DNA of 64,000 nt from an uncultured Nitrososphaerota archaeon (GCA_963703285.1 OY969807.1:1888001-1952000); one strand, 5' to 3'. Shown: positions 9,677-25,570, counted from the first letter of the stretch. Numbers and translations are program-made. The notes: generated by a model not told the origin, from the sequence alone.

Positions 9677-11026
9677 ATGGCAAGGGTCATCCCAGGCGTA
9701 GAGATCAAGGTCGTCAAGGAAATCGTCCCGCAGCAGCTGTATCCGTCGGGCGTTGTGGGCATGATTGGCACGGCGGACGACGGGCCCGTCAACAAGCCGA
9801 CGGGTGTGACGAGCTACAGGGAGCTCGTCTCGATATTCGGGAGCGAGGGTTCGCTCGTCCGAGACGCCAAGCTGGCCTTCCTCAACGGCGTCTTCCAGGT
9901 GTTCGCGACGAGAATCGAAGGGTCGGGCGGCGCCAAGGCGTCCACCACCCTTAAGGGTGCCAAGAACAGGAACACCTTGAGGATAAGCGTCAAGTCGGCG
10001 GGCGAGAGGGGCAACTCGACACAGGTCGTAGTGCTACAGGGACAGCAGGAGAACACGGTCAGGTTCGAGATAACCGACGGTAAGTCCCAGGAGACATTCG
10101 ACAACCTGTCGATGGAGCCCGGCAAGGAGTTCTTCTTGGTGGACTACCTCAACAATAACTCCAAACTTGTGATGGCGGAGAACCTCAACGCCAACCTCGA
10201 GTTCCCCGATAACAACCCCGTCGCGGTCGAGGCCACGCTCTCGGGCGGCATGTCAGCCCCGCCCACCAAGGATGACTACGACGCCGCCCTGCAGATGCTC
10301 GAGATGGAGGCGGAGGTCGACTCGGTCTACGCATGCGATTGCTGGGACCCGGCCGTCCACGCCCTCATTGACGCCCACTGCAAGAACATGAGCACCGACG
10401 CGAAGAACAGGATTGGCTTCGGCACGGTGGGACCCAACGAGAGCGTCGACGACATCATGAAGAGGACCGAGGTCCTGGCGAGCGACAGGTTCGTGGTCGT
10501 GGCGCCCTACGGAGTTGGTGGAGCGGTCGCAGGGCTGATCAGCAAGCTCAGCTACTGGGAGTCGCCCACCTTCAAGGCTCTCACGGGCATCGCGGACATC
10601 GAGAGGCGGTACACACCCTCAGAACAGATGAAGCTGCTCACGTCCGGTATCCTGCCGGTCGACGCCGTTAGGGGACGGGGCATCATCGTCGTCAAGGGAA
10701 TCACCACGAGCAGGGAGCAGATTAGCGTCATGAGGGTCGCCGACCACGCGGTGAGGGGCGTCAAGAACGTCTCGGAAAACTTCATCGGGACACTCAACAA
10801 CGAGCGGGGGAGGGTTGCCTTGAGGGAGGCGATGACCGGCTTCCTGCTCGGCATGTCCAAGGAGGGCTCCCTGGTTCCGTCCGTCGACAACACGAGCCCG
10901 CCGTTCCTCGTTGACGTCTACTCATCCCAACTCGACTTCGCCCAGGGCATAGTGAGGGCAGACGTCGCGGTGAGGCCGGTGCGAGCCATGGACTACATCT
11001 ACGCTACACTGACGGTCGAGGCATAG
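9677..11026 (+). CDS. Contractile tail sheath protein
   Basis: N-terminal PGVEIKVV...GVVGMIGTADDGPVNKP...FG; C-terminal RVADHAVRGVKNVSENFIG.LNN...VAVRPVRAMDYIYATL typical of sheath proteins. Confidence 0.93.
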   Translation: MARVIPGVEIKVVKEIVPQQLYPSGVVGMIGTADDGPVNKPTGVTSYRELVSIFGSEGSLVRDAKLAFLNGVFQVFATRIEGSGGAKASTTLKGAKNRNTLRISVKSAGERGNSTQVVVLQGQQENTVRFEITDGKSQETFDNLSMEPGKEFFLVDYLNNNSKLVMAENLNANLEFPDNNPVAVEATLSGGMSAPPTKDDYDAALQMLEMEAEVDSVYACDCWDPAVHALIDAHCKNMSTDAKNRIGFGTVGPNESVDDIMKRTEVLASDRFVVVAPYGVGGAVAGLISKLSYWESPTFKALTGIADIERRYTPSEQMKLLTSGILPVDAVRGRGIIVVKGITTSREQISVMRVADHAVRGVKNVSENFIGTLNNERGRVALREAMTGFLLGMSKEGSLVPSVDNTSPPFLVDVYSSQLDFAQGIVRADVAVRPVRAMDYIYATLTVEA

Positions 11027-11042
11027 GAGGGGGTGAAGACAA

Positions 11043-11444
11043 GTGTCAATGCTAATTGCGGCAAACGCCAGCCAGATAACCATTGACGGAAAGGTCGTCC
11101 CTGGGATTCAGTCCATCGACTTCAAAATAACTAGGAACCGCCAGAACATCCACGCCATAAGCACCGAGGAGAGGCTCGGGGCCTACTACGGCGCGCTCTT
11201 CGTCCAGGGCTCGGTCAAGATAAAGTCAGGATACGACGCCCTCGACAAGAAGATGTACGAGACGATCCCCACACTGAAGTTCTTCCAAATCGTCGTCCAG
11301 CTCCAGCCTCAGTCGGTCGACAAGCCGGTCAAGAAGATCACCTTCGACGAGTGCATCCTGGAGGACAAGACGTTCGCTATGGACGCGACCGGCGTCGCAA
11401 CGACGACCTACAACTTCACAGCGACCAGAATACGCGAAGAGTAG
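11043..11444 (+). CDS. Tail tube protein
   Basis: 133 aa beta-rich protein immediately after the sheath; tube-like pattern VPGIQSIDF...ITFDECILEDKTF.MDATG...YNFTAT. Confidence 0.8.
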   Translation: MSMLIAANASQITIDGKVVPGIQSIDFKITRNRQNIHAISTEERLGAYYGALFVQGSVKIKSGYDALDKKMYETIPTLKFFQIVVQLQPQSVDKPVKKITFDECILEDKTFAMDATGVATTTYNFTATRIREE

Positions 11445-11451
11445 AGGCGCC

Positions 11452-11820
11452 ACGACGCGCAGGCTAACGAAGGAGGACATCATTGAGGGGTCTCGCGTCC
11501 GCGAGACCGTCTTCCTCAAGGAGTATGGCTCAGAGGTGGTCGTGAGGCCCCTGACCGACGGTGAGCTCTCGCGGATATTCTCGATAGTAGGCCCCATCCC
11601 GCTCCGGCCGGACGGGACTCCCGACCTCGCCAGGGTCGAGGTAGACAAGAACTTCGACGCCCTTCGCCTGGCCGCCTCGATAGGGATGGTCGAGCCGCAG
11701 CTCGACACCAAGGAGGTCGCCGAGATGAAGTTCGGAGTCCCCGAGGCTATAGGGATGAAGATTCTCGAGATAAGCGGCGTCGCTCCTCCGGAGCAGGCTA
11801 AAAAAAAAGACGCGAGATAG
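11452..11820 (+). CDS. Tail assembly chaperone (gpG-like); probable ACG start at 11452 or 11455
   Basis: In-frame N-terminus RLTKEDIIEG...EYGSEVVVRPLTDGE upstream of the track's GTG; lies between tube and tape-measure-position gene; ends just after an A9 run. Confidence 0.75.
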   Translation, partial: TTRRLTKEDIIEGSRVRETVFLKEYGSEVVVRPLTDGELSRIFSIVGPIPLRPDGTPDLARVEVDKNFDALRLAASIGMVEPQLDTKEVAEMKFGVPEAIGMKILEISGVAPPEQAKKKDAR

Positions 11821-12038
11821 AGGGATTCGCGAGGAGCCCTGAGGGCCAGGAGCTGGCGACTCTCTGCCTAGACCTAGGGTACAAGCTCGCCCCGGAGGCG
11901 CGCGACCTCACCAGGCTCCAGATCGGGTTCCTCATGGCTGCCCTCTCGCTGAGGGCCGAGGCCGCCTCCGTCGCGGAGCTTGCGGAGCAGGGAGTGACCC
12001 GCATCGTCGTAAGGGATGACCTCGGAGGAGAGGGATGA
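11808..12038 (+). CDS. Chaperone -1 frame extension (gpT-like part of a gpGT fusion)
   Basis: The -1 frame after A9 (11800-11808) is open: RREIEGFARSPEGQELATLCLDLGYKLAPEARDLTRLQIGFLMAAL...DLGGEG*; its stop overlaps the next ATG (ATGA); no ATG/GTG/TTG near its 5' end. Confidence 0.75.
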   Translation, partial: RREIEGFARSPEGQELATLCLDLGYKLAPEARDLTRLQIGFLMAALSLRAEAASVAELAEQGVTRIVVRDDLGGEG

Positions 12039-15000
12039 GCAGCCCAAGAGACTCCGGGCGCCTGGCCTCGCTGGCGTCGAGGTTCGCCGCCTTCCTTAAG
12101 GGCCCGAGGGTAGGCCCGGTCGTCGAGAGCACCACCGCCTCTCTGTCCTCCCTGGTGGATCTCGGCGCCCGCCTGGCCTCGCGGGTGTCGAGGAGCGTCG
12201 CGGTGGTGGTCACCGGCCCTCCCTACACGCCGAAGGTGCGGCGAAGGGCCGCTGCCAGAGGTGTCGGCCCGGAGGAAGCCGCTCCGGACATCGAGCTTCA
12301 AACCGTGCCTTCTCAGCAGGAGTCTCCGTCGGGCGGCCCAGGCGGAGAGGATCGCGCCCTCTTCCCCTCCCTGACGAGCCCGATGCAGGCTGCATTTCGT
12401 TCGTTCTCCCAGCGGGGAGGCGGGCCAGCGCCCTCCACAACCGCGTTCCAGCCCGTGCCCGCAGCGGGGTCCTCATCCTCCGCCGCTCAGGGGCCTTCGT
12501 CAACCGGCGAGACCGCTTTTCACGACCTCTCGGCCGACTCAGGCTCGAGCTACCCCTCCTCGCCCGCCGCTACCCTGCTCTCCTTCCAGGGGGCGATGAC
12601 AGGAGCGGCCTCGGCAGCGGCTTCCGTCCTCCAGCAGGCGGTCGCGCCCTCGCCGGTGGGTTACGCGACCGGGGGTGCGGCGATGCCTGCCGTCTCCAAC
12701 GCCGCGGCCCGAGGCGAATCACAGCCGTCGTCGGGCACCGGGGGGCCACCGGCGGGAAGCACCCAGTTCCAGACCAGCCCTCCTGCGCCACAGCCGGGCT
12801 ATCAGGCGTCGACGGCAGTCCAAGCCCCTCCCCCTCCTCCGGCGGGAACCGCGGGCCCGCCCGCCGTACTCAGCACCGCAGCCTTCCGGAGCGTCTCTAC
12901 GGGGACCAGGGCCGTCGCCCCCGAAGCCTCGGGCAGCGCGGCGGAGAAGAGCGCGACGTCCCCGCAGCCGGGCGGTCCCGAACCGCAGAGCCCTCCGCAG
13001 GTCGCGGCGCAGCCCATGCCAAACCCGGCAGCCCCTCCTCCCTCGGGCTTCCCCGGCCAGCCCGCGCAGCAGGAGCAAGCCGTCTCACCGGCGAGCCCCT
13101 CTCTCTCGTCCTCTGCGCTGATCCCTTCGCTCGCTGCAGCCGCGTCGACAAGCTCCGCAGCGGCATATCTGGGGGTCCCTCCCCCGCCAAGCGCCGGACC
13201 CTCCGCTCTCGTCCTTGGGCCCGCGTCTGCCTCGAGTCGCCCGGGCGGAGGGGGGCCGATGCCTCCCAAACCCACGGGGCCGTCCCAGTCCCTTGAACCT
13301 GGCCCTGCCTCTCAGGCCGTCACGACGGAGTCGGCGTTGCGAGAGGCTTCGCAGACCCAGCCGAACCCTCCGCCCGCGCCCGCCACCGAAGAGGGAACCC
13401 CACCGACCATCGAGCGCGGCCCCCCATCCGACGTTGCCCGCTCGCCGGAGGAGCAGCCCGCCGCGGAGTCGGTCCCGGGATTGTCGCCCGCGCCTCGAGC
13501 CCCTCCCATCGGGCTCGAAGCTGCCTCGTCTCGCCATGCCGGTACGGAACCCGTCGCTCTCGAGCTCGGGCCCGCTCCACCTCTGCCGGGTGTATCCGCC
13601 CAACCCTCCCCCGAGCAACAGGGGACCGCTCCGGCTTCTCCAGGGGGTGGCACCACAAGCACAGTCCCCTTCTCCATGGATTGGCGGTGGTCCGCCGCGA
13701 TCGTGCGCATGGCGGCCACGCAGGCACTTCTCTCCTCGTACTTGGGGGGCACCGGTGTATCTCAGGTCCCCCTCGCGCCGCCCGGAGTCCCCCGCGCTGC
13801 CAATGCGAGTTCAGCGGTCCAACCTGAGCCCGCAGCCCCCGCGCCTCCGAGCGACATCGGACCCTCTGCCCCGCCGGGTCCGACTGGTGGGCCGCCTTCT
13901 ACCGAGTCGCCGAGGGGGCCTGAAGAGAGCCCGACCACCCCGCCGATGCCGCAAGCCTCTCCAGCGGTTCCCGAGGCGAGCGGTAGCGAAGTGCTCACGC
14001 CCTTCGGCATCGTCGCCTCCATGCAATCTGCATTCGCCGGTTCGAGAGTCGCTGAGGTGCTCGGAACCTCTGCTGCGGCTCCCCCGTCCCCGCCACCTCC
14101 CGCCGCTCGAATCGTCCCCCCGAGCGCTCCGCCTCCAACGGCGGGGCTTCCATCAGAGGGGTACGGTCCGAGAGCAGCGCCCTTGCCCGCAGAGCTGGCG
14201 GGTGGCAATGCTCCATCAGCGGGCGAATTGGAATTGGGGCTGCGACCCGCTCCACCGCCTAGCGGGTCGGTCCCCTTCCCCTCCCAGTCACGAGAGGCAG
14301 AATCGAGGGCGGCTCCTCCGGCTCCATCGGCTCCGTCGGTCGCGGCCGTCTCCGTCCCCCCTCTCCCAGCGGCCACCCGGGCACCGGTGCCGCCGCAGGT
14401 CCCTTCTGCGACCCCAGCCGCTCCTACAGTTCCCAGCCAGCGGGCGCGGGCCCCCGTCTCTACCGGTGGAGGAGTCGAGCCAGCGGGCGCTCCCGTCGCG
14501 GTGCCTGAGACCCCGGGAGGGCTCGCCTCCCTCTCACGCGTCGAGGTGCCTCCTCCAGCTCCCCCGTCGCCCCGCGGGCCTCCTTCGCCTACGCCAATGG
14601 GGACCACCGTTGTCTTCAGCCCCGCGGCCTTTGAGAGCGCCATTAGGGGAGTGAGGCCCGGAGTTCCGGAGGCGGAGGGGGCGCGTCTGAGGGTGCTGTG
14701 GAAGCTCCGGCGCAGCCGGGACCCGCGCCTCCGCCAGCGCCTCCCGCAGCACCCTCTGGCTTGCCTGGCGCCGGCCCGAGCGGTGCCCTGGTGACTCCTT
14801 CAGCCGCCCAGGCTGTCGCGTATGCGACCAGTCTCGGATTGATGCGCGGATCTCTCGTCTCTCCGCTTCCGCCTCCGGTTCCGCGTGGTTCGTTGGCCCC
14901 GGCGGCGCCCAGGCCGGCCGCCCCTGCCGGCCAGCAGTTGGTTACCGGGGAGAGCCGTGCGCCCGGGGAGCGTGAAGGGTCAGAGAGCGTCTTTGAGCTC

Positions 15001-15153
15001 CCGACGGGCGAGGAGGCACCTCTGGCCGAGGAAGAGCGGCAGCCGGAGTCGAGGGAAGAGAACGGGTCGCGTGATCAGGATGAGCTGTCGGCGATGCGCA
15101 AGACAATCGAGAGACTTTTGCAGGAGGAGCTCCGGAGGTACGGTATCCAATGA
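12035..15153 (+). CDS. Pro/Ala/Ser-rich low-complexity protein at the tape-measure position; interrupted by a -1 frameshift near 14677-14681 (~1039 aa if joined)
   Basis: ORFs 12035..14794 and 14698..15153 join seamlessly if G5 is G6 (EGGASEGAVEAPAQP); C-terminal helix ELSAMRKTIERLLQEELRRYGIQ resembles ends of CIS tape-measure-like proteins. Confidence 0.6.
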
Positions 15154-15228
15154 CCCGTCCGCCCGGGGCTCGCCATTCTATCACACACAAGTGGCTCGGG
15201 CGAACGCCTTGGGAGGGAGGCTTCAAAG

Positions 15229-15978
15229 TTGGACATTAAGCTCGACGACATAGACCTCGTCAAGAGGGTGCAGCCGTCCGCCGCCGGGCCATACACCGAA
15301 ATTCGTAGCGTCACGACTGTCGACGTCGATGACAGGAGAGATGTGGTCGAGATCAGGGTACCAGGGGCCGAAGGGAACGCGCTGCAGGACATGGGGCGCG
15401 AAGCCATCAGGATTAGGGTGGTGGGCGAGATATGGGGCAAGAGCGCCAAGACCACCCTGGAGTCCCTCAAGGACAAGTCGGACGGCGGGGAGGCGGTCTC
15501 GTTCACGTCGGACCTCCTCTCAGCGGCCAAGGTCAGCAACGTGGTCATCGAGAGGCTGCTCATAGACCAGTCGGCGGGAGTCCCGGACCGCTTCAAGTAC
15601 ACCCTCTTCCTGAGGGAGTACAAGGGGGAGACGGAGGAGGAAGGGGTCGAGGAGGGCGAGGAGGAAGAAGAGGCGGAGGAGCCCCCAGACCAGACCGAGG
15701 AGGCGGAGGAGGAGGCCGAGAAGGAGACAGAGGTGGACGACATAAGCGGACAGGTCCTCGACGCAGAGGGCAATCCGGCGCCCCACGTCGCGGTGAAGAT
15801 AGTGGGGCCGGACGGGGAGCGCATCATCATGACCGACGAGGACGGCAAGTACCAAGTCCTAGACGCGCCGGACGGAGAGTACACGGTCTCGGTTGACGAG
15901 GAGGGGTACGAGGAGGAGTCGAAGGTCACGGTCAAGAAGGGGGCCGGCGGGGAGGAGGCACCCCCGGGCGGAGCCTGA
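15229..15978 (+). CDS. Baseplate tube-initiator-like protein (DNA-circulation N-terminal-like domain) fused by an acidic linker to a carboxypeptidase-regulatory-like beta-sandwich
   Basis: VPGAEGNALQDMGREAIRIRVVG...VVIERL...YTLFLREY; Glu-rich linker; ISGQVLDAEGNP...TDEDGKY...GEYTVSV..EGY. Confidence 0.65.
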   Translation: MDIKLDDIDLVKRVQPSAAGPYTEIRSVTTVDVDDRRDVVEIRVPGAEGNALQDMGREAIRIRVVGEIWGKSAKTTLESLKDKSDGGEAVSFTSDLLSAAKVSNVVIERLLIDQSAGVPDRFKYTLFLREYKGETEEEGVEEGEEEEEAEEPPDQTEEAEEEAEKETEVDDISGQVLDAEGNPAPHVAVKIVGPDGERIIMTDEDGKYQVLDAPDGEYTVSVDEEGYEEESKVTVKKGAGGEEAPPGGA

Positions 15979-15983
15979 CGTGA

Positions 15984-18403: not shown

Positions 18404-18407
18404 ATAG
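18396..18407 (+). promoter_or_regulatory. Possible internal promoter for the baseplate genes
   Basis: A-rich BRE-like run then TAAATA at 18401-18406, 25 nt before ATG 18432. Confidence 0.4.
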
Positions 18408-18431
18408 CCTCGAGATGAGATTGTCGTGGTT

Positions 18432-19406
18432 ATGTCGCGTCCTTCGTATCAGATAAATTTGGGGTCTGCTGCCGTGGAACGCGGGGGCGCAGGTGATCTC
18501 GTTTCTGTACGCGTCTCTACCGACCTGGAGGGCAGGGCCGGCCTCTGCGAACTGGTCGTGAGGGCGAACGACTCGAACCTCGATTTTTCCGTCGGCGATT
18601 CCATGGACGCCTCGTTGGGGTACGTCGACGACACGACCAAGGTATTCACCGGTACGATAGACAGCGTATTCAGGGAGCTCGACTACGACCGCATCGTCTC
18701 TCTGAACTCCGTGGCGAAGCTCCAGAGGTACCGCACGGACAAGTTGTTCGAGAATCAGACCTGCGGCGCCATAGTCACCGACCTTGCGGCCTCTGCGAAC
18801 GCCTCCACCGGAGACGTCCAGGATGGACTCCAGCTTCCCTTCTACGCCGTCGATAGCGCGAAGAACGCGCACGAGCACGTGCTCGAGCTCGCGCGGCGCT
18901 GCGGCCACGAGGCCTACGTCGACGCGGACGACGCGCTTGCGTTCGGGCCATACGAGGCGGATTCCCCCAAACAGTTCGAGTACGGGAAGACCATCATCGC
19001 CGTGACGCGCCTCGAAAGGGGCGCGATCTTCGGCTCCGTCCACGTCTACGGCGAGAGCCCTTCGAGCTCGAAGGGGGCCGATTCTGTGCACTGGCTGACG
19101 AAGACGCCGGTCGACTCCACCAGCGGCGACGGCAATGCGCTGCTCGTGAGCGACGCGGCGGTAAGAGACACCGACACTGCGGGGAGCGTCAGCGATGTCC
19201 TGTTGGCCTCTGTCTCTCGTAACACGCTCCTCCGGCTGAAGACGCTCGGCGACGCGACGGTCGCCCTGAACTCCACGGTGCAGATACTGAGCATGACGGA
19301 CGAAGCTCTGAACGGCGATTATCAGGTAAGGGGAGTGGAGCACCTCTTCAGCAAGTCGAGGGGCTTCACCACGACCCTCTTGCTTTCGGGGACGGGTCAA
19401 GAATGA
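18432..19406 (+). CDS. Baseplate hub protein (P2 gpD / T4 gp27 / VgrG N-terminal-like)
   Basis: SLGY...KVFTGTID, FENQTCGAIVTDLA, ELARRCG, LGDATV...LNGDYQVRGVEHLFSKSRGFTTTL. Confidence 0.85.
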   Translation: MSRPSYQINLGSAAVERGGAGDLVSVRVSTDLEGRAGLCELVVRANDSNLDFSVGDSMDASLGYVDDTTKVFTGTIDSVFRELDYDRIVSLNSVAKLQRYRTDKLFENQTCGAIVTDLAASANASTGDVQDGLQLPFYAVDSAKNAHEHVLELARRCGHEAYVDADDALAFGPYEADSPKQFEYGKTIIAVTRLERGAIFGSVHVYGESPSSSKGADSVHWLTKTPVDSTSGDGNALLVSDAAVRDTDTAGSVSDVLLASVSRNTLLRLKTLGDATVALNSTVQILSMTDEALNGDYQVRGVEHLFSKSRGFTTTLLLSGTGQE

Positions 19407-19828
19407 GCGAAGAGAAACCGGTACTCGGCAGAGACCTCAGACTGGTAGAGACGCAGACGGGCGCCGACCTTGCACTCTCCGCGAGCGGAGACCTCGACCT
19501 CGTGGAGGACGAACTGAACCTCGGCCAGGCGATTGTGCACAGGATCAGGACGAGAAGGGGAGAGCTCACCGACATAGGACACAGGAGGTACGGCTCGCGG
19601 CTCTACGACCTGATAGGCGAGCCGAACAACGATACGACGAGGGAGCGCATCAAGGTGCTCGTGAGAGAGGCGCTCGCCCACGAGTCAAGGGTCAAGGAAA
19701 TACTCGGCCTTACGGTGACCCCCTCAAAGGATAGAGCCGACGCAGTGAGCATCGAGATCAGCGTCTCCGCCATCGGCGGCGAGGTCCCACTCAACATAGT
19801 CATGCCCTTCTACCTGGAGGTCGCCTGA
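19403..19828 (+). CDS. Baseplate wedge / sheath initiator (gp25/gpW family)
   Basis: NLGQAIVHRIRTRRGEL...H..YGSRLYDLIGEP...VREALAHESRV. Confidence 0.9.
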   Translation: MSEEKPVLGRDLRLVETQTGADLALSASGDLDLVEDELNLGQAIVHRIRTRRGELTDIGHRRYGSRLYDLIGEPNNDTTRERIKVLVREALAHESRVKEILGLTVTPSKDRADAVSIEISVSAIGGEVPLNIVMPFYLEVA

Positions 19829-19829
19829 T

Positions 19830-21446
19830 ACGTCCTCGCCCTACTCCAGGAAGTCCTTCGCGGAGATTACGGAGTCGATACTCGAACAGCTAACCAAGGG
19901 CGTGGTCGACGAGAAGCACGTGTACGACTCGGCGAAGGTGAGGTACAAGCTTGGGACGGACGAGAGGGTGAGGTCGATAGCCAAGGTCGAGGGGACGGTC
20001 AAGGGCAACAGGCACGTCTTCTCGCCCGAATCCGACTACGCGCTCTCCGACAACATGCTCGAGTGGACCTCCGGCGCCAAGCCCGACCAGATGACGCCCT
20101 TCCGCGTAAGCTACTCCTTCGGTGTCCCGTCTCCGATAACGGACGTCAACACGGGGTCCGTCGTGAGAACGATTGTGGAGGCGATAGGGAGGGAGATGGA
20201 GTACCTATACGTCCAGATGGACTACGTGTACGCTTCGGGATTCATCGACACCGCGACGGGGAGCGCCCTCGACCAGGTCGTCGCCATGCTAGGCGCGAGG
20301 AGGAGACCGGCGCAGAAGGCGCGGGGCGCCGTCGTCTTCGGGAGGAAGAACCCGCCCCAGGAGGGGAGCAGCGTAGAGGAGGTCGTCCTGCACGAGGGAA
20401 GGACCGAGTACCCCCTCAAGCAATCTCCCGTGAAGGAGGTGACCTCGGTGCGCGGGAGGACGGCAGGGGCCCCCGTGCAGTTCAAGAAGGGCGTGGACTA
20501 CCGCCTCTCCGGAAACTCGCTGGTCTGGACCCCCGGGGGGACCTCTCCAGAGCAGGGAACCGAGTTCACCATTAACTACAAGACGTTCCAGCAGGTCACC
20601 ATACCACCCGCTACGAAGGTTTCGACCTTCTCCAAGCGCGGAGAAGACGCGGTCGTCTTCCACACCATTGGCACGGCGGCCTTGGGAAGGACGGAGGACG
20701 GCGCGTGGGAGGCGGAGGTCACGGTCGAGGCCGACGAGCCGGGTCAGCGGGGGAACGTCCTTCCTGGGACCGTGACGCTGATGCCGAAGCCGGTGGAGGG
20801 GGTCGAGTACACGATTAACAGGAGAACCATCAGCGGTGGCTCGCCCATCGAGATGGACGACGAGCTCCGTTCGCGGGCCAGGGGGGAGCTCAAGTCCTTG
20901 GGACGGGCTACCCGGACCGCCCTCAAACAGAGGATAGAGAATGTCGACGGAGTCCTCCGCCCCGTCAAGATAGAGGAGCTCCCGATACCCTTCAGCACGG
21001 AGGTTGGAGGGGCCCCCGTGCAGCTCCCCATCCCTGGAGTGGTCCGCGTGATTGTAGACGGCGGCGACATCGAGGAGATAAGGCGCGTCGTGGAGGAGAC
21101 GCGTGCTGCGGGTGTGCTGGTGGAGGTCGTGAGACCGAGGCAGGTCCTGTTGGGCGTCCAGGCGGTCGTGGAGCTCGAACGCAATGCTCGGCTCGAGAAG
21201 GTCCAGGCGCTCATACGGGAGCAGCTCGAGGGCTATGTCGATTCTCTGCAGACGGGAGACACGGTGATATTCAGTCGAGTAGCCTCGTTCATCCTCTCCG
21301 CCGAGGGAGTCCGCGACGTGAAGAGCATCCAGGTCCAGGCGTACCGGGAGGGACAAGCAGCCAGCTTCAACACCAACGTCAGCCTCGCCCAGGACGAGAA
21401 GGCCCGGCTTAGGGACGTCTCAATCCAGCCGGCAGGAGGCCCTTAG
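19830..21446 (+). CDS. Baseplate J/gp47-family wedge protein with two inserted beta domains; probable ACG start
   Basis: DVNTGSVVRTIVEA, FIDTATGSALD, A.EPGQRGNV, GGS..EMDDELRSR, TRAAGV; N-terminal RKSFAEITESILEQLT lies upstream of the track GTG; GGAGGT 8 nt before ACG 19830. Confidence 0.9.
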   Translation, partial: TSSPYSRKSFAEITESILEQLTKGVVDEKHVYDSAKVRYKLGTDERVRSIAKVEGTVKGNRHVFSPESDYALSDNMLEWTSGAKPDQMTPFRVSYSFGVPSPITDVNTGSVVRTIVEAIGREMEYLYVQMDYVYASGFIDTATGSALDQVVAMLGARRRPAQKARGAVVFGRKNPPQEGSSVEEVVLHEGRTEYPLKQSPVKEVTSVRGRTAGAPVQFKKGVDYRLSGNSLVWTPGGTSPEQGTEFTINYKTFQQVTIPPATKVSTFSKRGEDAVVFHTIGTAALGRTEDGAWEAEVTVEADEPGQRGNVLPGTVTLMPKPVEGVEYTINRRTISGGSPIEMDDELRSRARGELKSLGRATRTALKQRIENVDGVLRPVKIEELPIPFSTEVGGAPVQLPIPGVVRVIVDGGDIEEIRRVVEETRAAGVLVEVVRPRQVLLGVQAVVELERNARLEKVQALIREQLEGYVDSLQTGDTVIFSRVASFILSAEGVRDVKSIQVQAYREGQAASFNTNVSLAQDEKARLRDVSIQPAGGP

Positions 21447-21448
21447 AC

Positions 21449-22360
21449 TTGCAGCGGACCGCGCGGGTCGCCGAGAGGCTCCCAGAGTTCTATCGCTCCT
21501 GGGACCCAGATAGCGTCCTCTACGGGCTCATCAACGCCTTCGCCAGGTCGCTGAACGAGCAGCAACGGGACCTCTTCCGGATTCCGAGGACCCACTGGGT
21601 AGAGACGGCCCACCTCGCCGACCTCGACGCAATCGGTGCAATCTTCGACCTCCTGCGCTCTCCGGGAGAGACCGACGAGGACTACAGGATAAGGATCAAG
21701 AACGGCATCCAGCGGTTCAAGGGCGGCGGCACCAGGGAATCCGTGATATCGATGATGGCCGCGTTCCTGAAGACGGAGGGAGCCGAGCTCGAGCTGGTGG
21801 AGAACCCCGCCGCCCCGCTCGTCGTCACGCGTTCTGTCGCGGGCGACAGCGAGTGGACCCTCGGAAGCATGGGCGTGGAGGACGCCCCGCCTAGGATGGA
21901 GCTCTCGGTCGTTGACGAGGGCGAGAGGATAGTCGACCCGACCCTGACAGTCAAGGAGACGGGCGCCAGCGTCAGGTTCAGGGGGACCGTCGCCTACGGC
22001 CAGCGCCTGGTCATCGAGGGTGCGCGTGCGACGCTCGACGAGGAAGACGTCTCGGACAGCCTAGAACGGAAGGGCGAGCCCTCCCTCCTCCGGTCGGGGT
22101 CGACCTGGTCCTTCCACGAGGCGCTCTCCTCCCTGGTGGGGAGCTTCGACCGCTCCGTCTTCGATGGCTCCGTCTTCCAGAAGCCCGTGCCTAGGGTCCG
22201 CGTCAGGTTCGATTGGACCAGCAGGCAGCCCTGCGCCTTCGAGCTGGTCGTTCCCCGCCGCGCCCTGGAGAGGAGCCACTCATCGCCGGAGGAGGTCGAG
22301 GGCCTCCTCAATATTATAAGGGCCCAGGGAGTCAGGGCGACCCTAAGAGTCAAGGAGTAG
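21449..22360 (+). CDS. Baseplate wedge protein (P2 gpI/gp7-like)
   Basis: RLPEFY, LDAIGAIFDLLRSPGETDEDYRIRI, GGGTRES, IRAQGV; follows baseplate J. Confidence 0.75.
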   Translation: MQRTARVAERLPEFYRSWDPDSVLYGLINAFARSLNEQQRDLFRIPRTHWVETAHLADLDAIGAIFDLLRSPGETDEDYRIRIKNGIQRFKGGGTRESVISMMAAFLKTEGAELELVENPAAPLVVTRSVAGDSEWTLGSMGVEDAPPRMELSVVDEGERIVDPTLTVKETGASVRFRGTVAYGQRLVIEGARATLDEEDVSDSLERKGEPSLLRSGSTWSFHEALSSLVGSFDRSVFDGSVFQKPVPRVRVRFDWTSRQPCAFELVVPRRALERSHSSPEEVEGLLNIIRAQGVRATLRVKE

Positions 22361-22372
22361 GTGCATCGTTGG

Positions 22373-23023
22373 ATGACAGAGTTTAAACCGAGACCTGCGC
22401 AGCCGGGCGAGCCGATCAAGTCCGAGGACTGGAACTACGTCCAGCAGGGCCTCCTGGACGAGATCCTCGCGCTGCGGGCGCGGTGCGACGACCTCCGGAA
22501 GTACGTCGACAACATGTCCGTCCTCCACACCATGACCAACCTCGAGAGCGCCGAGGGCAAGTCATACGGGCTCGATGAAACGGTGCCCGGCGAGGTGGGG
22601 AACTACGGTGCCGGCGTCGTTGGGCTGATCTCGCGGCAGTGGGTACCGCCCCTGAAGGGGAACGTCGGAATCTGCAGGTTCACCCTGACGAACGCCTTCG
22701 ACCAGCTCGACTTCTGGGCCGGAGCCGAGGGAGGCAACAGGAGGGCCCTCGAAGTCACGCTGAACTACGCGGACGGGACGACAGAGACCTTTCCTGACCT
22801 TTACGTCCACGACAGAGCAGCGCTTGCGCCAGCCGGAGACGACAATCCGTTCGTCGAGTACATCCTCTCTCCCTCGCAGTGGGTCTGGTACCGGTACAGG
22901 TTAGCCAACCCGCACCCGGAGCGCGAGGTCATCTCCGTCTCCTTCGCGAACGCGAGCCCCGAGGCCCGCGGCAGGATCGGAAACGTGGTTCAGCTCCGAG
23001 TCAAGGTCAGACAGCTAGCGTGA
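22373..23023 (+). CDS. Short tail-fibre / receptor-binding-like protein
   Basis: N-terminal PGEPIKSEDWNYVQ fibre-attachment-like motif, short coiled coil, beta-sandwich C-terminus (NPHPEREVISVSF); position after the wedge genes. Confidence 0.5.
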   Translation: MTEFKPRPAQPGEPIKSEDWNYVQQGLLDEILALRARCDDLRKYVDNMSVLHTMTNLESAEGKSYGLDETVPGEVGNYGAGVVGLISRQWVPPLKGNVGICRFTLTNAFDQLDFWAGAEGGNRRALEVTLNYADGTTETFPDLYVHDRAALAPAGDDNPFVEYILSPSQWVWYRYRLANPHPEREVISVSFANASPEARGRIGNVVQLRVKVRQLA

Positions 23024-23029
23024 TGGTGG

Positions 23030-23740
23030 ATGCACGAACTCTCTGAACGGGTCGTCGACGTCCTGAAGGAGAGGCTGGAGATTGTCCCGGCACAGAGCAT
23101 CGCGGCGAGGACCCCGGGCGGGAAGAAGGTGCCAAAGCTCCCGTTCGTCTTCGTCTACACGCCCGAGTTCACCTTCGAGGATGCGGGCGTAGGAGGAGGA
23201 AGCGTGCAGGTATCCGAGGAGGTCGAGGACACCCGGGAGGGCAACGGCAAGGGTGCGACCTTCAAGCTGTCGCAGAGGGCCCAGAGGCCGCTCAAGTCCG
23301 TCGAGTCTCCCTCCGGCTCGCAGCTCATCGAGGGGTCAGACTTCACGGTGAACTACGGGACGGGGAGGGTCACCTTCGAGAAGCCGCCGAAGGACGGGGC
23401 GGCCGTCGTCTTCCGCTACCTGTCAGCGGCAAGTGCGGGGAGGACGCGTGCGGTGAGGCTCAGCGTTGTCCTGCACGTCGACGTTTGGGGCGAGGACGAG
23501 GCGAGCGTCGACGACATCGTCCTAGACGTGATAAAGGGGATGGTGCTCTCCCAGGAGGCCCTCACGCGGAGAGGACTAAACCTCAAACCCTCGAAGGGCT
23601 TCATCCTGGGCCAGGAGGACGGCCTCCCCGACGAGATCTTCGCGCAGCGGGTCGTCTACACCGCCGAGACAGAGGTGCAGGCCAGGGAGTCGATCCCGAG
23701 GATTGAGAGCATCGAGGTCCGACAGAAGCCCCCGCTGTGA
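23030..23740 (+). CDS. Tail terminator / completion (cap)-like protein with inserted beta domain
   Basis: LPFVFVY...LHVDVWGEDEASVDDI terminator-like pattern; insert DFTVNYGTGRVTFEKPPKDGAAVVFRY. Confidence 0.5.
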   Translation: MHELSERVVDVLKERLEIVPAQSIAARTPGGKKVPKLPFVFVYTPEFTFEDAGVGGGSVQVSEEVEDTREGNGKGATFKLSQRAQRPLKSVESPSGSQLIEGSDFTVNYGTGRVTFEKPPKDGAAVVFRYLSAASAGRTRAVRLSVVLHVDVWGEDEASVDDIVLDVIKGMVLSQEALTRRGLNLKPSKGFILGQEDGLPDEIFAQRVVYTAETEVQARESIPRIESIEVRQKPPL

Positions 23741-23789
23741 GAGAGATGTACACCGCGAGCGCAACCCCGAGCGAAGCCAGGGCGAGAGC

Positions 23790-24419
23790 ATGAGCGGCAT
23801 CGTCGACTCGATGAGGAAGATAGCTCAGGCCGAGGTGAGGAAGCTGCACCTCTCGGAGCTGGGAGTCGTCACCTCCGTCTTCCCGCACTCCGACGAAGGG
23901 GACAACGACAACTATGAATGCAACGTCAAGCTCAGGGACAGGGACATCGAGCTAAGGAAGGTCCCCGTGGCCACCTCGCAGGTGGGCCTCGTCAACCCCC
24001 CTCACGTGGGCGACCTCGTCCTGCTCGCCTTCGTCAACGGGGACTTCAACTCGCCGATAATCATAGGTCGGCTGTACAACGACGAGGACAGGCCCCCCAC
24101 GAGCCAGAGCGAGGAGGTGGTCTACAAGCCGGCCTACGACAAGAACGCCGACCTGCGCAGGGTCCACCTCGAGCTCCCCGAGGGCGACGTGAAGGTCACG
24201 ATCCAGGACGAGCAGCTGATCCTCCACGTCGGCGAGACGGACGTCACCGTCAGCAAGGAGAGCGTGACACTCGAGACGAAGAAGCCGATCACGATCAAGA
24301 CAGAGGATGACCTCTCGATCAAGGCGAAGAACATCAAGTTCGAGAGCGACGCCGCGACGGAGATCACCGCCTCGGGGAAGATGACCTTGAAGGGAGCGAC
24401 TGTGGAGATCAACCCGTAG
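23790..24419 (+). CDS. Baseplate spike protein (gpV/gp5 OB-fold plus beta-helix)
   Basis: LGVVTSV, PPHVGDLVLLAFVNGDFNSPIIIGRLYN; repetitive beta-helix end ...MTLKGATVEIN. Confidence 0.9.
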   Translation: MSGIVDSMRKIAQAEVRKLHLSELGVVTSVFPHSDEGDNDNYECNVKLRDRDIELRKVPVATSQVGLVNPPHVGDLVLLAFVNGDFNSPIIIGRLYNDEDRPPTSQSEEVVYKPAYDKNADLRRVHLELPEGDVKVTIQDEQLILHVGETDVTVSKESVTLETKKPITIKTEDDLSIKAKNIKFESDAATEITASGKMTLKGATVEINP

Positions 24420-24429
24420 GTGCGGATGG

Positions 24430-24747
24430 ATGCCGAGCGCCGCCAGGCAGACCGACCAGGTGCAGGGGAACTGCGCGCACGGGTGCCCGGTCTGCCCCCA
24501 CCCGGTGGCCGGGATGATAGCCTCGGGCTCTCCGGACGTCCTGATCAACAGCCTGCCCGCGGCCCGAAAGGACGACAAGGGGCTGCACGCCGCGTGCTGC
24601 GCCGCCAACAACTTCACCATCTCCAACGGCTCCGCCACGGTGAAGGTGAACGGGAAGCCCATGGCCCGGGCCGGTGACCCGACACAGCACTGCGGCGGCA
24701 GCGGTACGATCTCGGCTGGGAGCCCCACCGTAATCGTGGGTGGGTGA
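24430..24747 (+). CDS. PAAR-repeat spike tip protein
   Basis: PSAAR, GSPDVLINSLPAAR, GSATVKVNGKPMARAGD; His/Cys metal ligands. Confidence 0.95.
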   Translation: MPSAARQTDQVQGNCAHGCPVCPHPVAGMIASGSPDVLINSLPAARKDDKGLHAACCAANNFTISNGSATVKVNGKPMARAGDPTQHCGGSGTISAGSPTVIVGG

Positions 24748-24751
24748 AGGC

Positions 24752-25570
24752 ATGCCGGCCCCCGACGCGAACCTGATGTCTCAGCTCGTCAAGGCCAACT
24801 TCCTCTCCAAGGGCATCAAGGTCCCCTCCTCCTGGGACGCGAGCCTGGAGGACAAGTACAACGGGAAGGTCGATGACTTCAAGCCTGGCGTCCCGCGGCC
24901 CACGAACATCTTCGTCCCTCCCAGCGCGGACAAGATAGCGGTGGACGCCTGCAACAAGGTCAGCGAGGGTTTCGAAGGTTTCATCGACGACGTCTGCGGG
25001 GCGGTCTGCGGTTGCTGGAGCACCTGGCAGAGCACGGTCCAGTTCGTCGGGGTAATCATCAACGCGGGGGTCGGGATACTCCCGCCGGGAGGGATGGTCG
25101 GGGGCGGACTGATGGCTGGTCCGATGATCCTCGCCAGAATGAAGCAGAAGGGTGGCAACTACGCCCTCTACGGCAACGCCATCGCCTCCGCTATAGGTCA
25201 AGCTTGGACCGCGTGGGAGCTTGGCTACACGAACCCGGCCCTCCCGTTCCCCGGAGGGATGGTCTGCTCGACAACCATGCCGCCCTCCCCCAACACGCCC
25301 CTCCCCCTGGTGTCGGGGATGTCGCCGGGCGACGCGTTGATGGACGGGGCGTTGCTGAAGCTCTCTATGCTTGGGATGCTGGGTGCCCCCGGCGAGCACG
25401 CTGAGCCGCTTTGTGACTCGGTCGCCCAGGCGTTCGCCCAGCTCTTCCTGACTTGGAAGGGAACCACGATGATTTCGAATGTCCTGGGGGCGGGCGGCGT
25501 CGCCCCTCCTCCTCCCGCCCCTCCGGGTCCCGTCGCGGGTGCGGTGGGGAACGGGGGTAGCTTGGTGTGA
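24752..25570 (+). CDS. Gly/Pro-rich hydrophobic protein of unknown function, last gene of the tail operon
   Basis: GGTGA RBS, 4 nt after the PAAR stop; three internally similar helical segments each containing a W (CWSTWQ, AWTAWE, FLTWK). Confidence 0.65.
   Translation: MPAPDANLMSQLVKANFLSKGIKVPSSWDASLEDKYNGKVDDFKPGVPRPTNIFVPPSADKIAVDACNKVSEGFEGFIDDVCGAVCGCWSTWQSTVQFVGVIINAGVGILPPGGMVGGGLMAGPMILARMKQKGGNYALYGNAIASAIGQAWTAWELGYTNPALPFPGGMVCSTTMPPSPNTPLPLVSGMSPGDALMDGALLKLSMLGMLGAPGEHAEPLCDSVAQAFAQLFLTWKGTTMISNVLGAGGVAPPPPAPPGPVAGAVGNGGSLV

What the first reader, a model, noticed from the sequence alone, without database searches (positions are those of the whole stretch)
9677..25570. Complete stand-alone contractile injection system operon in a TACK/Nitrososphaerota-like archaeon
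Seen: about 16 co-oriented, coupled genes with motifs of sheath, tube, chaperones, hub, gp25, baseplate J/I, fibre-like protein, terminator, gp5-type spike and PAAR. They follow one archaeal TATA promoter and are flanked by ordinary cell genes. No capsid, portal, terminase, integrase, replication or lysis gene was recognised. Known: headless tails act as tailocins, eCIS (Afp/PVC/MAC) or T6SS-like machines, and archaeal examples are mostly described from halophiles and methanogens. Unusual here: single sheath and single tube; no Afp15-like AAA+ ATPase or ClpV; no membrane complex; no LysM recognised; hub and spike are separate genes split by the wedge genes. Inference: a minimal, possibly undescribed archaeal CIS subtype delivering its own cargo.
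Basis: partly seen in the sequence, partly recalled or inferred. Interest (0 to 1): 0.92.

Follow-up and report, generated by a model that had tools for sequence, protein, structure and literature searches.

The report
Headless contractile injection system in archaea
This soil archaeon carries a complete phage-tail-like "syringe" gene cluster with no virus head, one member of a widespread archaeal family that carries swappable enzyme genes and may be a weapon against neighbouring microbes.

Summary
Window 9677-25570 holds 16 co-oriented, tightly spaced genes: sheath, tube, a 94-aa protein, a tape-measure-like protein, a DNA_circ_N protein, hub, gp25, Baseplate_J, I-like wedge, a beta-sandwich protein, a tail-terminator fold, gp5-type spike, PAAR and a 276-aa protein. 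A metzincin protease and a TPR protein sit inside the cluster.

Seven head or packaging Pfam families found nothing in the 2.25-Mb single-contig genome. The flanks are cell genes.

The cluster is not unique. I fetched 66 related loci from Nitrososphaerota, Bathyarchaeia, Methanosuratincola, Methanocella, Methanoperedens and others. None of the 36 with 5.5 kb or more fetched upstream has a shared head module there. Sheath and tube dN/dS is about 0.03.

The slot between the DNA_circ_N gene and the hub carries different enzymes in different lineages: metzincin+TPR, subtilase+phospholipase D, or phospholipase D plus a PG_binding_1 protein. A fold model supports metzincin-TPR binding (0.63; best control 0.00).

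It fails the tested features of Afp/PVC-type eCIS and of T6SS. Its baseplate is nearest to a solved chain named CD1371.

The apparent split of the tape-measure gene is a one-base G-run difference. The one short-read contig covering it does not share it.

No paper found describes this family. Verdict: a new variant of a known kind; interest 0.72.

The parts
8988..9539 (+). 183-aa protein, possibly a regulator. Membership in the system is uncertain.
   Evidence: No Pfam or NCBIfam hit. The ribbon-helix-helix look of its N-terminus is my reading of the sequence. A 25%-identical homologue (E 1.2e-16) lies divergently next to the sheath gene in L041. It was not found in the other 67 loci.
9642..9659 (+). 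AT-rich TATA-like element ending 18 nt before the sheath start codon
   Evidence: Sequence read directly. It is one of 8 AT-rich patches in 8800-26500. Promoter function is inferred.
9677..11026 (+). Contractile sheath protein (449 aa)
   Evidence: PF04984 2.1e-17 and PF22671 4.7e-7. It is the only sheath in the genome. 970 homologues were found. dN/dS is 0.028.
11043..11444 (+). Tail tube protein (133 aa)
   Evidence: Weak PF18906 (0.0043) and PHROG 365 tail protein (0.0016). It follows the sheath in 54 of 69 sources. dN/dS is 0.027.
11536..11820 (+). Conserved 94-aa protein in the tail-assembly-chaperone position
   Evidence: No family hit. It is 47-84% identical across the related loci and present in 47 of 69 sources. 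The role is inferred from position only.
12035..15153 (+). Tape-measure-like A/S/P-rich protein, about 1039 aa. The assembly splits it into 12035-14794 and 14698-15153 by one base in the G5 run 14677-14681.
   Evidence: In 13 of the 14 related loci examined, one ORF of 457-1124 aa fills this position and ends in a shared motif (..L[RK][DE]LE[RK]KI..I..E..RRYG); in the 14th, L044, the gene is in pieces and the last piece carries the motif. The same motif ends the window's 151-aa ORF. The relative L017 matches the N-terminus in one frame and the C-terminus in another. The one short-read contig covering the site (run X1, depth 5.7) has an extra G there, which gives one open frame.
15229..15978 (+). 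DNA_circ_N baseplate/hub-associated protein with a C-terminal CarboxypepD_reg Ig-like domain
   Evidence: PF07157 2.6e-5, PF19512 1.6e-4, PF13620 2.7e-12. Present in 51 of 69 sources. dN/dS is 0.054.
15984..17516 (+). Metzincin-type zinc metalloprotease (510 aa, HELGHSVGLWHH motif, no hydrophobic leader). Candidate cargo.
   Evidence: Reprolysin_5 1.3e-5 and Astacin 1.5e-3, both below cut-off. 376 homologues, 7 of the 120 listed fused to PG_binding_1. H384, E385, H388, H394 and H395 are invariant in 29 sequences. No hydrophobic segment. dN/dS is 0.138.
17513..18403 (+). TPR protein, predicted partner of the metzincin (inhibitor, immunity protein or chaperone). The ORF opens at 17483; the likely start is GTG 17513, overlapping the protease stop codon.
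   Evidence: TPR Pfam hits. Full-length relatives of about 280 aa exist. It is paired with the protease in L055 and L061. Complex model: score 0.63, best control 0.00. GTGA overlap read.
18426..19406 (+). gp27-like baseplate hub (326 aa)
   Evidence: PHROG 196 baseplate hub 1e-6. NCBIfam VgrG_rel positions 74-182, 5.9e-9, below cut-off. Present in 42 of 69 sources.
19403..19828 (+). gp25-like sheath initiator
   Evidence: PF10934 3.7e-8 and PF04965 1e-4. PDB matches 2ia7 3.8e-4 and 8v3w_L, named 'Sheath initiator (CD1370)', 1.7e-3.
19902..21446 (+). Baseplate J wedge protein
   Evidence: PF04865 2.3e-23. Nearest solved chain 8v3w_E, named 'TRI-2 (CD1371)', 1.5e-11.
21449..22360 (+). gpI-like baseplate wedge protein
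   Evidence: PHROG 1160 baseplate protein 9.6e-14. Present in 26 of 69 sources.
22361..23023 (+). 220-aa protein with a long N-terminal helix and a C-terminal beta-sandwich. Candidate short fibre or receptor-binding protein.
   Evidence: AF2 pLDDT 87.4. Foldseek matches are weak and generic: CBM29, tailspike and minor tail proteins, E 1e-4 to 3e-3, TM <= 0.4. It is 41-57% identical across phyla.
23030..23740 (+). Tail terminator / cap protein with an inserted beta domain
   Evidence: AF2 pLDDT 79.3. Foldseek PDB: phage 812 neck 8qkh_G E 1.8e-9; T5 p142, lambda gpU, pyocin R2 collar, PVC cap 9qgn_A (7.3e-3), Mu terminator 9khy_1.
23790..24419 (+). gp5/V-type spike. The ORF opens at 23703; homologues align from about residue 24-33, so the likely start is M30.
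   Evidence: PF04717 2.1e-7. NCBIfam VgrG_rel positions 416-538, 4e-10, and phage_P2_V 3.3e-5. Alignment starts seen.
24430..24747 (+). PAAR tip protein
   Evidence: PF05488 4.5e-23. NCBIfam T6SS_PAAR_dom 7e-15, below cut-off.
24740..25570 (+). Glycine-rich 276-aa protein with one hydrophobic segment (about residues 96-131). It overlaps the PAAR stop codon by 8 nt. Function unknown.
   Evidence: No family hit. 58 homologues of uniform length, about 270 aa. Hydrophobic segment and overlap.
25577..26362 (-). 261-aa protein with an N-terminal membrane helix and a C-terminal double zinc ribbon. It is a recurrent neighbour of these clusters. Candidate anchor or regulator.
   Evidence: DZR 1.4e-8. 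Hydrophobic residues 5-34. tblastn hits in 16 of 68 related loci, some over the zinc-ribbon part only. Ten other loci plus the window pass clustering at >= 50% coverage.

Best explanation
The cluster encodes a headless, phage-tail-derived contractile injection particle of a so far undescribed archaeal lineage.

Inferred assembly: a baseplate forms from the hub, the spike tipped by PAAR, the DNA_circ_N protein, the gp25/J/I wedges and a peripheral beta-sandwich protein. The tape-measure-like protein sets the length. Tube and sheath polymerise on the baseplate, and the terminator caps them.

Inferred action: on a trigger the sheath contracts and drives tube and spike into a neighbouring cell's envelope. 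With them go exchangeable enzymes encoded inside the cluster. Here the enzyme is a metzincin protease, held by its TPR partner until delivery. In relatives it is a phospholipase D, a subtilase or a PG_binding_1 protein.

Shown: the gene content, the lack of head genes, conservation under purifying selection, and the variable enzyme slot.

Inferred: that particles form, that the enzymes are delivered, and what the target is. The recurrent PG_binding_1 domains point to bacteria.

Open: whether the particle is released (tailocin/eCIS mode) or fires from the cell membrane (T6SS mode).
For: 1. Complete structural set, including a terminator fold.

2. Operon-like spacing.

3. No head or packaging genes. 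PF03354, PF03237, PF05065, PF04860, PF17289, PF04466 and PF04586 gave 0 matches in the 2,252,123-bp single contig, which is 96% complete. Controls rang in 2-5 of 14 known genomes. TerL (2 families) was also not found in 3 of 5 other carrier genomes, two of them complete. In the other two it is not beside the cluster.

4. The upstream regions of 36 related loci share no head module, only cell genes.

5. Purifying selection against the 95%-identical relative: sheath 0.028, tube 0.027, 94-aa protein 0.075, DNA_circ_N protein 0.054, metzincin 0.138.

6. The core order is conserved across archaeal classes.

7. The slot between the DNA_circ_N gene and the hub holds metzincin+TPR here and in L061. 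Same-genus genomes hold subtilase+PLD there, and L029 holds PLD+PG_binding_1.

8. PG_binding_1 proteins lie in 8 related loci. The domain is fused to 7 of the 120 listed metzincin homologues.

9. The complex model supports metzincin-TPR binding. The median score is 0.63 (runs 0.63, 0.75, 0.36) and the best of 3 controls is 0.00. That mark was reached by 58 of 80 solved complexes and 2 of 110 mismatched pairs. Run-to-run contact agreement is >= 39% and partner pLDDT >= 78. The interface includes residues 364-373, 379 and 394, beside the HExxH site.
Against: There is no evidence of particles and none on expression.

No release (lysis) genes and no proven membrane anchor were recognised.

Loading of the enzymes onto or into the particle is not shown, and they carry no known loading signal.

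The enzymes could instead be tail-tip lysins, or unrelated passengers in a permissive slot.

PG_binding_1 proteins might play a structural role, like LysM proteins in other baseplates.

The 'fibre' candidate is unusually conserved for a receptor binder (41-57% identity across phyla).

Pfam head models may miss very divergent archaeal head proteins.

The assembly as given has a frameshift in the tape-measure-like gene. Only one short-read contig covers the site.
Confidence: 0.68

Rival explanations
1. It is an R-type tailocin in the strict sense: a released, headless tail that kills by punching and depolarising the target membrane. The internal enzyme genes are tail-associated envelope-degrading enzymes that help penetration (cell wall or S-layer), not injected effectors.
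For: The baseplate J and sheath initiator are nearest in sequence to the solved chains named CD1371 and CD1370 (1.5e-11 and 1.7e-3), which I recall are diffocin components. Hub and spike are separate genes, as in phages. There is no Afp15-type ATPase and no Pvc16_N match. The enzymes sit among the baseplate genes, between the DNA_circ_N gene and the hub.
Against: Phospholipase D and a protease paired with an active-site-covering partner look like effector-immunity logic rather than structural lysins. PAAR is present. No holin or lysis cassette was recognised. The enzyme genes lie on the opposite strand in L061, so they are not a fixed structural part.
Confidence: 0.17
2. It is the tail module of a virus or split provirus. 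The head, packaging and replication genes lie elsewhere in the genome, or are too divergent to recognise. A gene-transfer-agent-like arrangement is a variant of this.
For: The gene order of the wider family follows what I recall as the phage Mu tail module, and several Pfam hits are phage families. Thaumarchaeal proviruses with heads, and possibly domesticated ones, are known (PMC6563490, passages read). Two IMG/VR contigs carry the cluster. The cluster is patchy within the genus: 6 of 22 other genomes.
Against: Seven head or packaging families gave nothing in a nearly complete single-contig genome. Two complete carrier genomes lack TerL. No head module lies upstream in 36 loci. The fetched parts of the two IMG/VR contigs show only cluster genes and the zinc-ribbon gene. 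No phage among 50,697 records has a sheath above 29% identity. The sheath tree follows host classes.
Confidence: 0.08
3. It is a decaying provirus remnant without function.
For: The assembly shows a frameshift in the tape-measure-like gene. No integrase or att sites mark it as a recent arrival.
Against: dN/dS is 0.03-0.14. All other genes are intact. The frameshift is absent from the one short-read contig that covers it. The same gene set is kept across archaeal classes.
Confidence: 0.03

Closest known systems
R-type tailocins of Firmicutes and phage-proximal type (diffocin of Clostridioides difficile; PBSX-like elements; pyocin R2)
   Same: Both are headless contractile tails encoded in the chromosome, with one sheath, one tube and separate hub and spike genes. 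Baseplate J and sheath initiator are nearest in sequence to the solved chains named CD1371 and CD1370. The terminator fold matches the pyocin R2 collar and the monocin cap. Sheath_initiator (PF10934) and a weak YQBQ-like hit are the best Pfam matches. That CD1370/CD1371 are diffocin components is recalled, not from a call.
   Different: The host is archaeal. There is no recognised lysis cassette. A PAAR gene and a variable slot with protease, phospholipase D and PG-binding genes lie inside the cluster. The tape-measure-like protein is A/S/P-rich. Sequence identity to any solved or deposited phage protein is low.
Phage Mu tail module (sheath L, tube M, chaperone, tape measure, gp43 DNA_circ_N, hub gp44, spike gp45, gp46, gp47, gp48)
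   Same: The order in most related loci is sheath, tube, small protein, tape-measure-like protein, DNA_circ_N protein, hub, spike, gp25-like, J, I. This matches the Mu order as I recall it. Pfam DNA_circ_N and GP46 match, and the Mu terminator appears among the fold matches.
   Different: There are no head, portal, terminase or transposase genes. In this genus the spike and PAAR genes have moved to the end. The terminator gene lies after the wedge genes. Enzyme cargo genes are present.
Afp/PVC/MAC-type extracellular contractile injection systems (cis1-16), including the haloarchaeal T6SS of Halogeometricum borinquense and the ANME 'PLTS'
   Same: Both are headless contractile devices with PAAR and associated toxins, scattered among microbes. 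The haloarchaeal one is shown to kill other archaea on contact (PMC11566945, abstract and passages read). The nearest solved sheath by sequence is Streptomyces Cis2 (8BKY/8BL4), but only over the N-terminal part, at 8e-8.
   Different: There is no T4-gp19-type tube hit, no AAA+ ATPase, no Pvc16_N hit and no fused VgrG. Afp3 matches the sheath only at 1.5e-3 and Pvc3 at 0.32. The PVC and Anabaena caps rank below phage terminators. Surveys of eCIS report a single archaeal phylum (PMC8213781, passages read).
Type VI secretion system
   Same: Both have a PAAR-tipped spike and phospholipase D and protease-type enzymes with cognate binding partners, which is a T6SS-like effector logic. A conserved membrane-anchored neighbour (the zinc-ribbon protein) could tether the device.
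   Different: There are no TssB/C, Hcp, ClpV or TssJLM hits. The sheath is a single phage-type protein. A tape-measure-like protein and a terminator are present.

Membership tests
Afp/PVC-type eCIS (cis1-16) | Tube proteins of the T4 gp19 / Afp1-5 family | tested here: not met
   The tube matched only PF18906 (0.0043) and PHROG 365 (0.0016). There was no T4-gp19-type family at E <= 0.01, and no PDB match at E <= 10.
Afp/PVC-type eCIS (cis1-16) | Afp15-type AAA+ ATPase in the cluster | tested here: not met
   None of the 18 cluster ORFs scanned matched an AAA family at E <= 0.01. None appeared among the recurrent gene families of the 68 related loci.
Afp/PVC-type eCIS (cis1-16) | Afp16/Pvc16-type cap (Pvc16_N, DUF4255) | tested here: inconclusive
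   PF14065 gave no match in the genome, but its control rang in 0 of 14 genomes. The terminator model matches the PVC cap 9qgn_A only at E 7.3e-3, below many phage terminators.
Afp/PVC-type eCIS (cis1-16) | Fused VgrG (gp27+gp5) spike | tested here: not met
   The hub matches positions 74-182 of NCBIfam VgrG_rel, and the spike matches positions 416-538. They are two genes 4.4 kb apart.
Type VI secretion system | TssB/TssC sheath, Hcp tube, ClpV, TssJLM membrane complex | tested here: not met
   No such Pfam or NCBIfam family was hit by any cluster protein. Only VgrG and PAAR models hit, and below their cut-offs.
R-type tailocin (headless phage tail) | Full contractile tail gene set without head, packaging or replication genes | tested here: met
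   Structural set. Seven head or packaging families are absent from the genome. Flanks are cell genes.
R-type tailocin (headless phage tail) | Dedicated lysis cassette for release (holin / endolysin) | tested here: not met
   No lysis-type family was hit among the cluster and flank proteins. Archaeal release factors are unknown, so this is weak evidence.
R-type tailocin (headless phage tail) | Particles are produced and kill related strains | not testable with these tools
   This needs culture, EM and killing assays.
Tailed provirus (Caudoviricetes) | Terminase large subunit, portal, HK97 capsid, prohead protease | tested here: not met
   PF03354, PF03237, PF17289, PF04466, PF04860, PF05065 and PF04586 gave 0 matches in G000.
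Contractile injection systems in the broad sense | Sheath, tube, gp25, gp6/J, gp27 hub, gp5 spike, terminator | tested here: met

The most novel reading that the evidence does not exclude
This is the founding example of a third, archaea-specific lineage of contractile injection systems. It is distinct from Afp/PVC-type eCIS and from T6SS. It spans Thermoproteota (Nitrososphaeria, Bathyarchaeia, Methanosuratincolia) and methanogens or methanotrophs (Methanocella, Methanoregula, Methanothrix, Methanoperedens). Archaea use it as a weapon against bacteria: it delivers exchangeable wall- and membrane-degrading enzymes (metzincin, subtilase, phospholipase D, PG_binding_1 proteins), each held in check by a cognate partner such as the TPR protein.
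Probability: 0.35. Interest if true: 0.88.

Novelty: new variant of a known kind. Interest (0 to 1): 0.72.

Why it matters
The only archaeal contractile injection system with experimental work that my searches found is the haloarchaeal, Afp-type one (PMC11566945). This family would extend such devices to soil Nitrososphaerota, Bathyarchaeia and methane-cycling archaea, with a different, phage-proximal ancestry.

Peptidoglycan-binding domains, phospholipase D and proteases are physically linked to the cluster. This gives a concrete, testable mechanism for the recent proposal that archaea attack bacteria. PMC12352652 (passages read) noted only a weak statistical link between PF04984 and leaderless peptidoglycan hydrolases.

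The family occurs in a Methanocella record that is not labelled as a MAG and in a complete Methanosuratincola genome. Experiments are therefore within reach.

Tried and rejected

Sequence-only PDB searches gave nothing useful for the tube, the hub, the DNA_circ_N protein and the two unknown proteins.

The protein Atlas gave no usable hit for the zinc-ribbon protein. For the 276-aa protein it gave only unnamed bacterial clusters, with low recognition. I draw nothing from these.

The sigma-70 promoter and intrinsic-terminator scan was at chance level and does not apply to archaea.

The direct-repeat search found only 16-32-nt chance-like matches and no att-like pair flanking the cluster.

Expression: no RNA holder was listed for the stretch, so nothing can be said about expression. 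Runs X2-X4 do not cover the G-run site, so only one contig speaks to the frameshift.

dN/dS against the 80%-identical relative L012 gave 0.13-0.59, but dS is saturated. I do not use those values as evidence.

PF14065 (Pvc16_N): its control rang nowhere, so the blank is uninformative.

Literature. Searches found no paper describing this family. One search was too broad to be useful. The 2019 mBio survey of archaeal toxin systems by Makarova and co-workers is not held. I recall that it covers some phage-tail-like delivery systems in archaea, so it may already describe part of this family. Supplementary tables of the eCIS surveys (PMC8213781, PMC6899500) were not seen and may list archaeal loci. 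I did not build a joint sheath or J tree with eCIS, T6SS, pyocin and phage references, because reference sequences were not at hand. Placement against known classes therefore rests on E-values and fold ranks only.

I considered folding the zinc-ribbon protein with a baseplate protein. I dropped it because no specific partner could be named.

Full report
WHAT IS THERE. The window is positions 1,888,001-1,952,000 of a 2,252,123-bp single-contig genome rated 96% complete.

Between 9677 and 25570 the + strand carries a run of closely spaced ORFs. Gaps between them run from -34 to 91 nt, apart from 214 nt before the tape-measure-like gene.

Pfam, PHROGs and NCBIfam name most of them:
- sheath: PF04984, 2.1e-17
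- tube: weak matches only
- a DNA_circ_N protein with a CarboxypepD_reg domain
- a gp27-like hub
- a gp25-like sheath initiator: PF10934, 3.7e-8
- Baseplate_J: 2.3e-23
- an I-like wedge protein: PHROG 1160, 9.6e-14
- a gp5/V-type spike: PF04717, 2.1e-7
- PAAR: 4.5e-23

[quoted passage not shown] The VgrG equivalent is therefore split into two genes, as in phages. No NCBIfam model reaches its cut-off.

Two proteins had no sequence match, so I modelled them from alignments of homologues taken from related loci.
- The 236-aa protein (23030-23740; pLDDT 79) has a tail-terminator fold. Its best match is the phage 812 neck chain at E 1.8e-9. T5 p142, lambda gpU, the pyocin R2 collar, the PVC cap and the Mu terminator follow.
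- The 220-aa protein (22361-23023; pLDDT 87) is a long helix followed by a beta-sandwich. It resembles carbohydrate-binding modules and minor tail proteins only weakly: E 1e-4 to 3e-3, TM <= 0.4.

An AT-rich TATA-like element ends 18 nt before the sheath ATG.

The flanks are ordinary archaeal genes. A 94-nt tRNA-Pro, longer than the 71-position model, lies 10 kb downstream.

A SPLIT GENE THAT IS PROBABLY NOT SPLIT. The 72%-GC stretch holds a 919-aa A/S/P-rich ORF (12035-14794). A 151-aa ORF in another frame overlaps its end.

In 13 of the 14 related loci examined, one ORF of 457-1124 aa fills this position and ends in a shared motif. In the 14th, L044, the gene is in pieces and the last piece carries the motif. 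The same motif ends the window's 151-aa ORF. The closest relative matches the N-terminus in one frame and the C-terminus in the other.

The frames meet at a G5 run, 14677-14681. The only short-read contig covering that site (run X1, depth 5.7) has one more G. Reading through with X at the break gives one ORF of about 1039 aa.

I take this gene as the tape-measure equivalent, on position and the conserved C-terminus. I take the frameshift as an assembly error or a minor variant.

HEADLESS. Seven head or packaging families (TerL_ATPase, Terminase_6N, Terminase_6C, Terminase_3, Phage_portal, Phage_capsid, Peptidase_S78) gave no match in the genome. The controls rang in 2-5 of 14 known genomes.

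The one tyrosine integrase is 270 kb away. No att-like repeats flank the cluster.

In five other carrier genomes, two TerL families were not found in three, two of which are complete chromosomes. In the other two they are not beside the cluster.

A LARGE ARCHAEAL FAMILY. The sheath has 970 homologues at E <= 1e-3 among the 8000 candidates scored. The 120 listed are 59-100% identical.

A scan of species-representative genomes returned 66 loci: Nitrososphaerota, Nitrososphaera, Bathyarchaeia, Methanosuratincola/Methanomethylicia, Hadarchaeota, a Thermococci bin, Thermoprotei, Methanoperedens, Methanocella, Methanoregula, Methanothrix and three bacterial bins. IMG/VR gave only 2 contigs.

The cluster is patchy:
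- same genus: 6 of 22 other genomes;
- other genera of the family and order: 0 of 18;
- a sample of 401 genomes of the phylum: 12, counting this one.

I clustered the ORFs of the 68 related loci plus the window, 69 sources in all. The recurrent families, as sources holding each, are: sheath 66, tube 54, DNA_circ_N 51, the 94-aa protein 47, hub 42, spike 32, gp25 32, J 30, I 26, the 220-aa protein 22, the terminator 20. Many loci are cut by contig ends or by the 10-kb flank.

The usual order is sheath, tube, 94-aa protein, tape-measure-like protein, DNA_circ_N protein, hub, spike, gp25, J, I, 220-aa protein, terminator. I recall this as the order of the phage Mu tail module. In the window's genus, spike and PAAR have moved to the end.

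The upstream regions of 36 loci (335 ORFs) share no head module. The commonest shared neighbour is a homologue of the zinc-ribbon membrane protein that lies just downstream in the window. The ten representative upstream proteins I scanned are transporters, a nitroreductase, a chemoreceptor and the like, plus one PG_binding_1 protein and one with no Pfam hit.

A sheath tree of 63 rows follows host classes. It was a quick IQ-TREE search. L074, L075, L079, L080, L081 and L082 were left out because their matches were under 400 residues. Methanomicrobia form one side of a branch (99*). The class labels need 8 changes, against 22 in shuffles. The Krumholzibacteria contig sits inside a tight Bathyarchaeia group, which suggests a binning error.

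SELECTION. Against the 95%-identical relative, dN/dS is 0.028 (sheath), 0.027 (tube), 0.075 (94-aa protein), 0.054 (DNA_circ_N protein) and 0.138 (metzincin). dS is near 1. These are functional genes.

THE VARIABLE ENZYME SLOT. In the window, a 510-aa metzincin and a TPR protein lie between the DNA_circ_N gene and the hub. The metzincin has the motif HELGHSVGLWHH, no hydrophobic leader, and Reprolysin/Astacin hits below cut-off.

The same pair sits in the same slot, on the other strand, in a Bathyarchaeia locus (L061). It lies near the cluster in a Methanomicrobiales locus (L055).

Other lineages hold other enzymes in this slot:
- Same-genus genomes hold a 755-aa subtilase and an 894-aa phospholipase D.
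- A Nitrososphaerales locus (L029) holds a phospholipase D and a PG_binding_1 protein.
- L061 adds a PG_binding_1 protein.

PG_binding_1 proteins occur in 8 of the loci held. Of the 120 listed homologues of the metzincin, 7 are fused to PG_binding_1.

The metzincin and TPR families were aligned (29 and 25 rows) and folded together. The score was 0.63 (runs 0.63, 0.75, 0.36), with the best of three controls at 0.00. That mark was reached by 58 of 80 solved complexes and 2 of 110 mismatched pairs. The runs agree in at least 39% of contacts, and partner pLDDT is at least 78. My own alignments were used, so the calibration holds only roughly.

The predicted interface covers residues next to the invariant H384/E385/H388/H394. 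This fits an inhibitor, immunity protein or holding chaperone. It is a model's support, not proof.

The last gene, after PAAR, is a glycine-rich 276-aa protein with one hydrophobic segment. It has 58 homologues of uniform length and its function is unknown.

WHAT IT IS NOT.
- It is not an Afp/PVC-type eCIS by the features tested. It has no gp19-type tube, no AAA+ ATPase and no fused VgrG. The PVC and Anabaena caps rank below phage terminators.
- It is not a T6SS. It has no TssB/C, Hcp, ClpV or membrane-complex hits.
- It is not close to any deposited phage. The best sheath identity is 27-29% over half the protein, among 50,697 records.

Among solved structures, the sheath is about equally far from Streptomyces Cis2 (8e-8, N-terminal part only), a phage FI sheath (3e-7) and Afp3 (1.5e-3). 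Baseplate J and the sheath initiator are nearest to chains named CD1371 and CD1370 (1.5e-11 and 1.7e-3). I recall these as components of the diffocin tailocin of Clostridioides difficile.

LITERATURE. The haloarchaeal T6SS (PMC11566945: abstract, outline and passages read) and the ANME 'PLTS' (PMC9012536: passages read) are Afp-type clusters with cis1-16 or ATPase/LysM genes.

The eCIS survey PMC8213781 (passages read) reports a single archaeal phylum.

A sheath-evolution study (PMC9230969, passages read) lists sheath homologues in Thaumarchaeota, Bathyarchaeota and other archaeal assemblies. It leaves their nature open.

PMC6563490 (passages read) describes thaumarchaeal proviruses that do have heads.

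PMC12352652 (passages read) notes a weak enrichment of leaderless peptidoglycan hydrolases in archaeal genomes with PF04984.

None of my searches found a description of this family. One relevant survey (mBio 2019) is not held, and supplements were closed.

READING. The best explanation is a headless contractile injection particle of a phage-proximal, archaea-specific lineage that carries exchangeable enzymes (confidence 0.68).

The main rival keeps the headless tail but treats the enzymes as penetration aids of a classical tailocin (0.17). A split provirus (0.08) and a dead remnant (0.03) are unlikely.

Three things are not decided here: whether the device is released or membrane-bound, whether the enzymes are injected, and whether the targets are bacteria. 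The PG_binding_1 domains hint at bacteria. The zinc-ribbon membrane protein is found in 16 of 68 loci by tblastn, and in 10 other loci plus the window at >= 50% coverage. It is a candidate anchor or regulator, on neighbourhood alone.

Noticed in passing
window 26419-27585 and 27599-28525 (- strand): Two adjacent genes for pentameric ligand-gated ion-channel-like membrane proteins (NCBIfam LIC 2.2e-13 and LGIC_1 5.7e-11, both below cut-off). Homologues at 53-56% identity lie upstream of the sheath gene in two same-genus genomes (L013, L015).
   Followed up: partly
window 14677-14681: A G5 homopolymer where the assembly differs by one base from a short-read contig of the same study. Other homopolymer errors may exist elsewhere in this single-contig genome.
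   Followed up: partly
window 35378-35471 (- strand): A tRNA-Pro (GGG) of 94 nt, longer than the 71-position model, which would fit an archaeal intron.
   Followed up: no
window 1293-4076: An Lrp/AsnC-type regulator with a TRASH domain lies next to a P-type ATPase with a YHS domain. This is a likely copper-handling pair.
   Followed up: no
L011 5750-7930 (also L012, L014, L019, L020, L022): Same-genus relatives carry a second, 726-aa DNA_circ_N paralogue with a long helical, apolipoprotein-like extension ahead of the normal copy. The window lacks it.
   Followed up: partly
L069 (Krumholzibacteriaceae bin, 7140-nt contig): Its sheath sits inside a tight Bathyarchaeia group with a very short branch. 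This is probably an archaeal contig binned with a bacterium. The Archangiaceae contigs (L079, L080; 46-47% identity) look like true bacterial relatives.
   Followed up: partly
L044 17670-19155 and L041 12861-13731: In these loci the Baseplate_J gene and the I-like gene each match as two adjacent pieces. These are possible frameshifts or assembly errors in those records.
   Followed up: no
L062 12145-12375, L039 8585-8788, L037 12116-12346: A second small ORF of about 70 aa follows the 94-aa gene. Clustering found such a family in 6 loci. It is reminiscent of the two-part tail chaperones of phages. It was not seen in the window.
   Followed up: no
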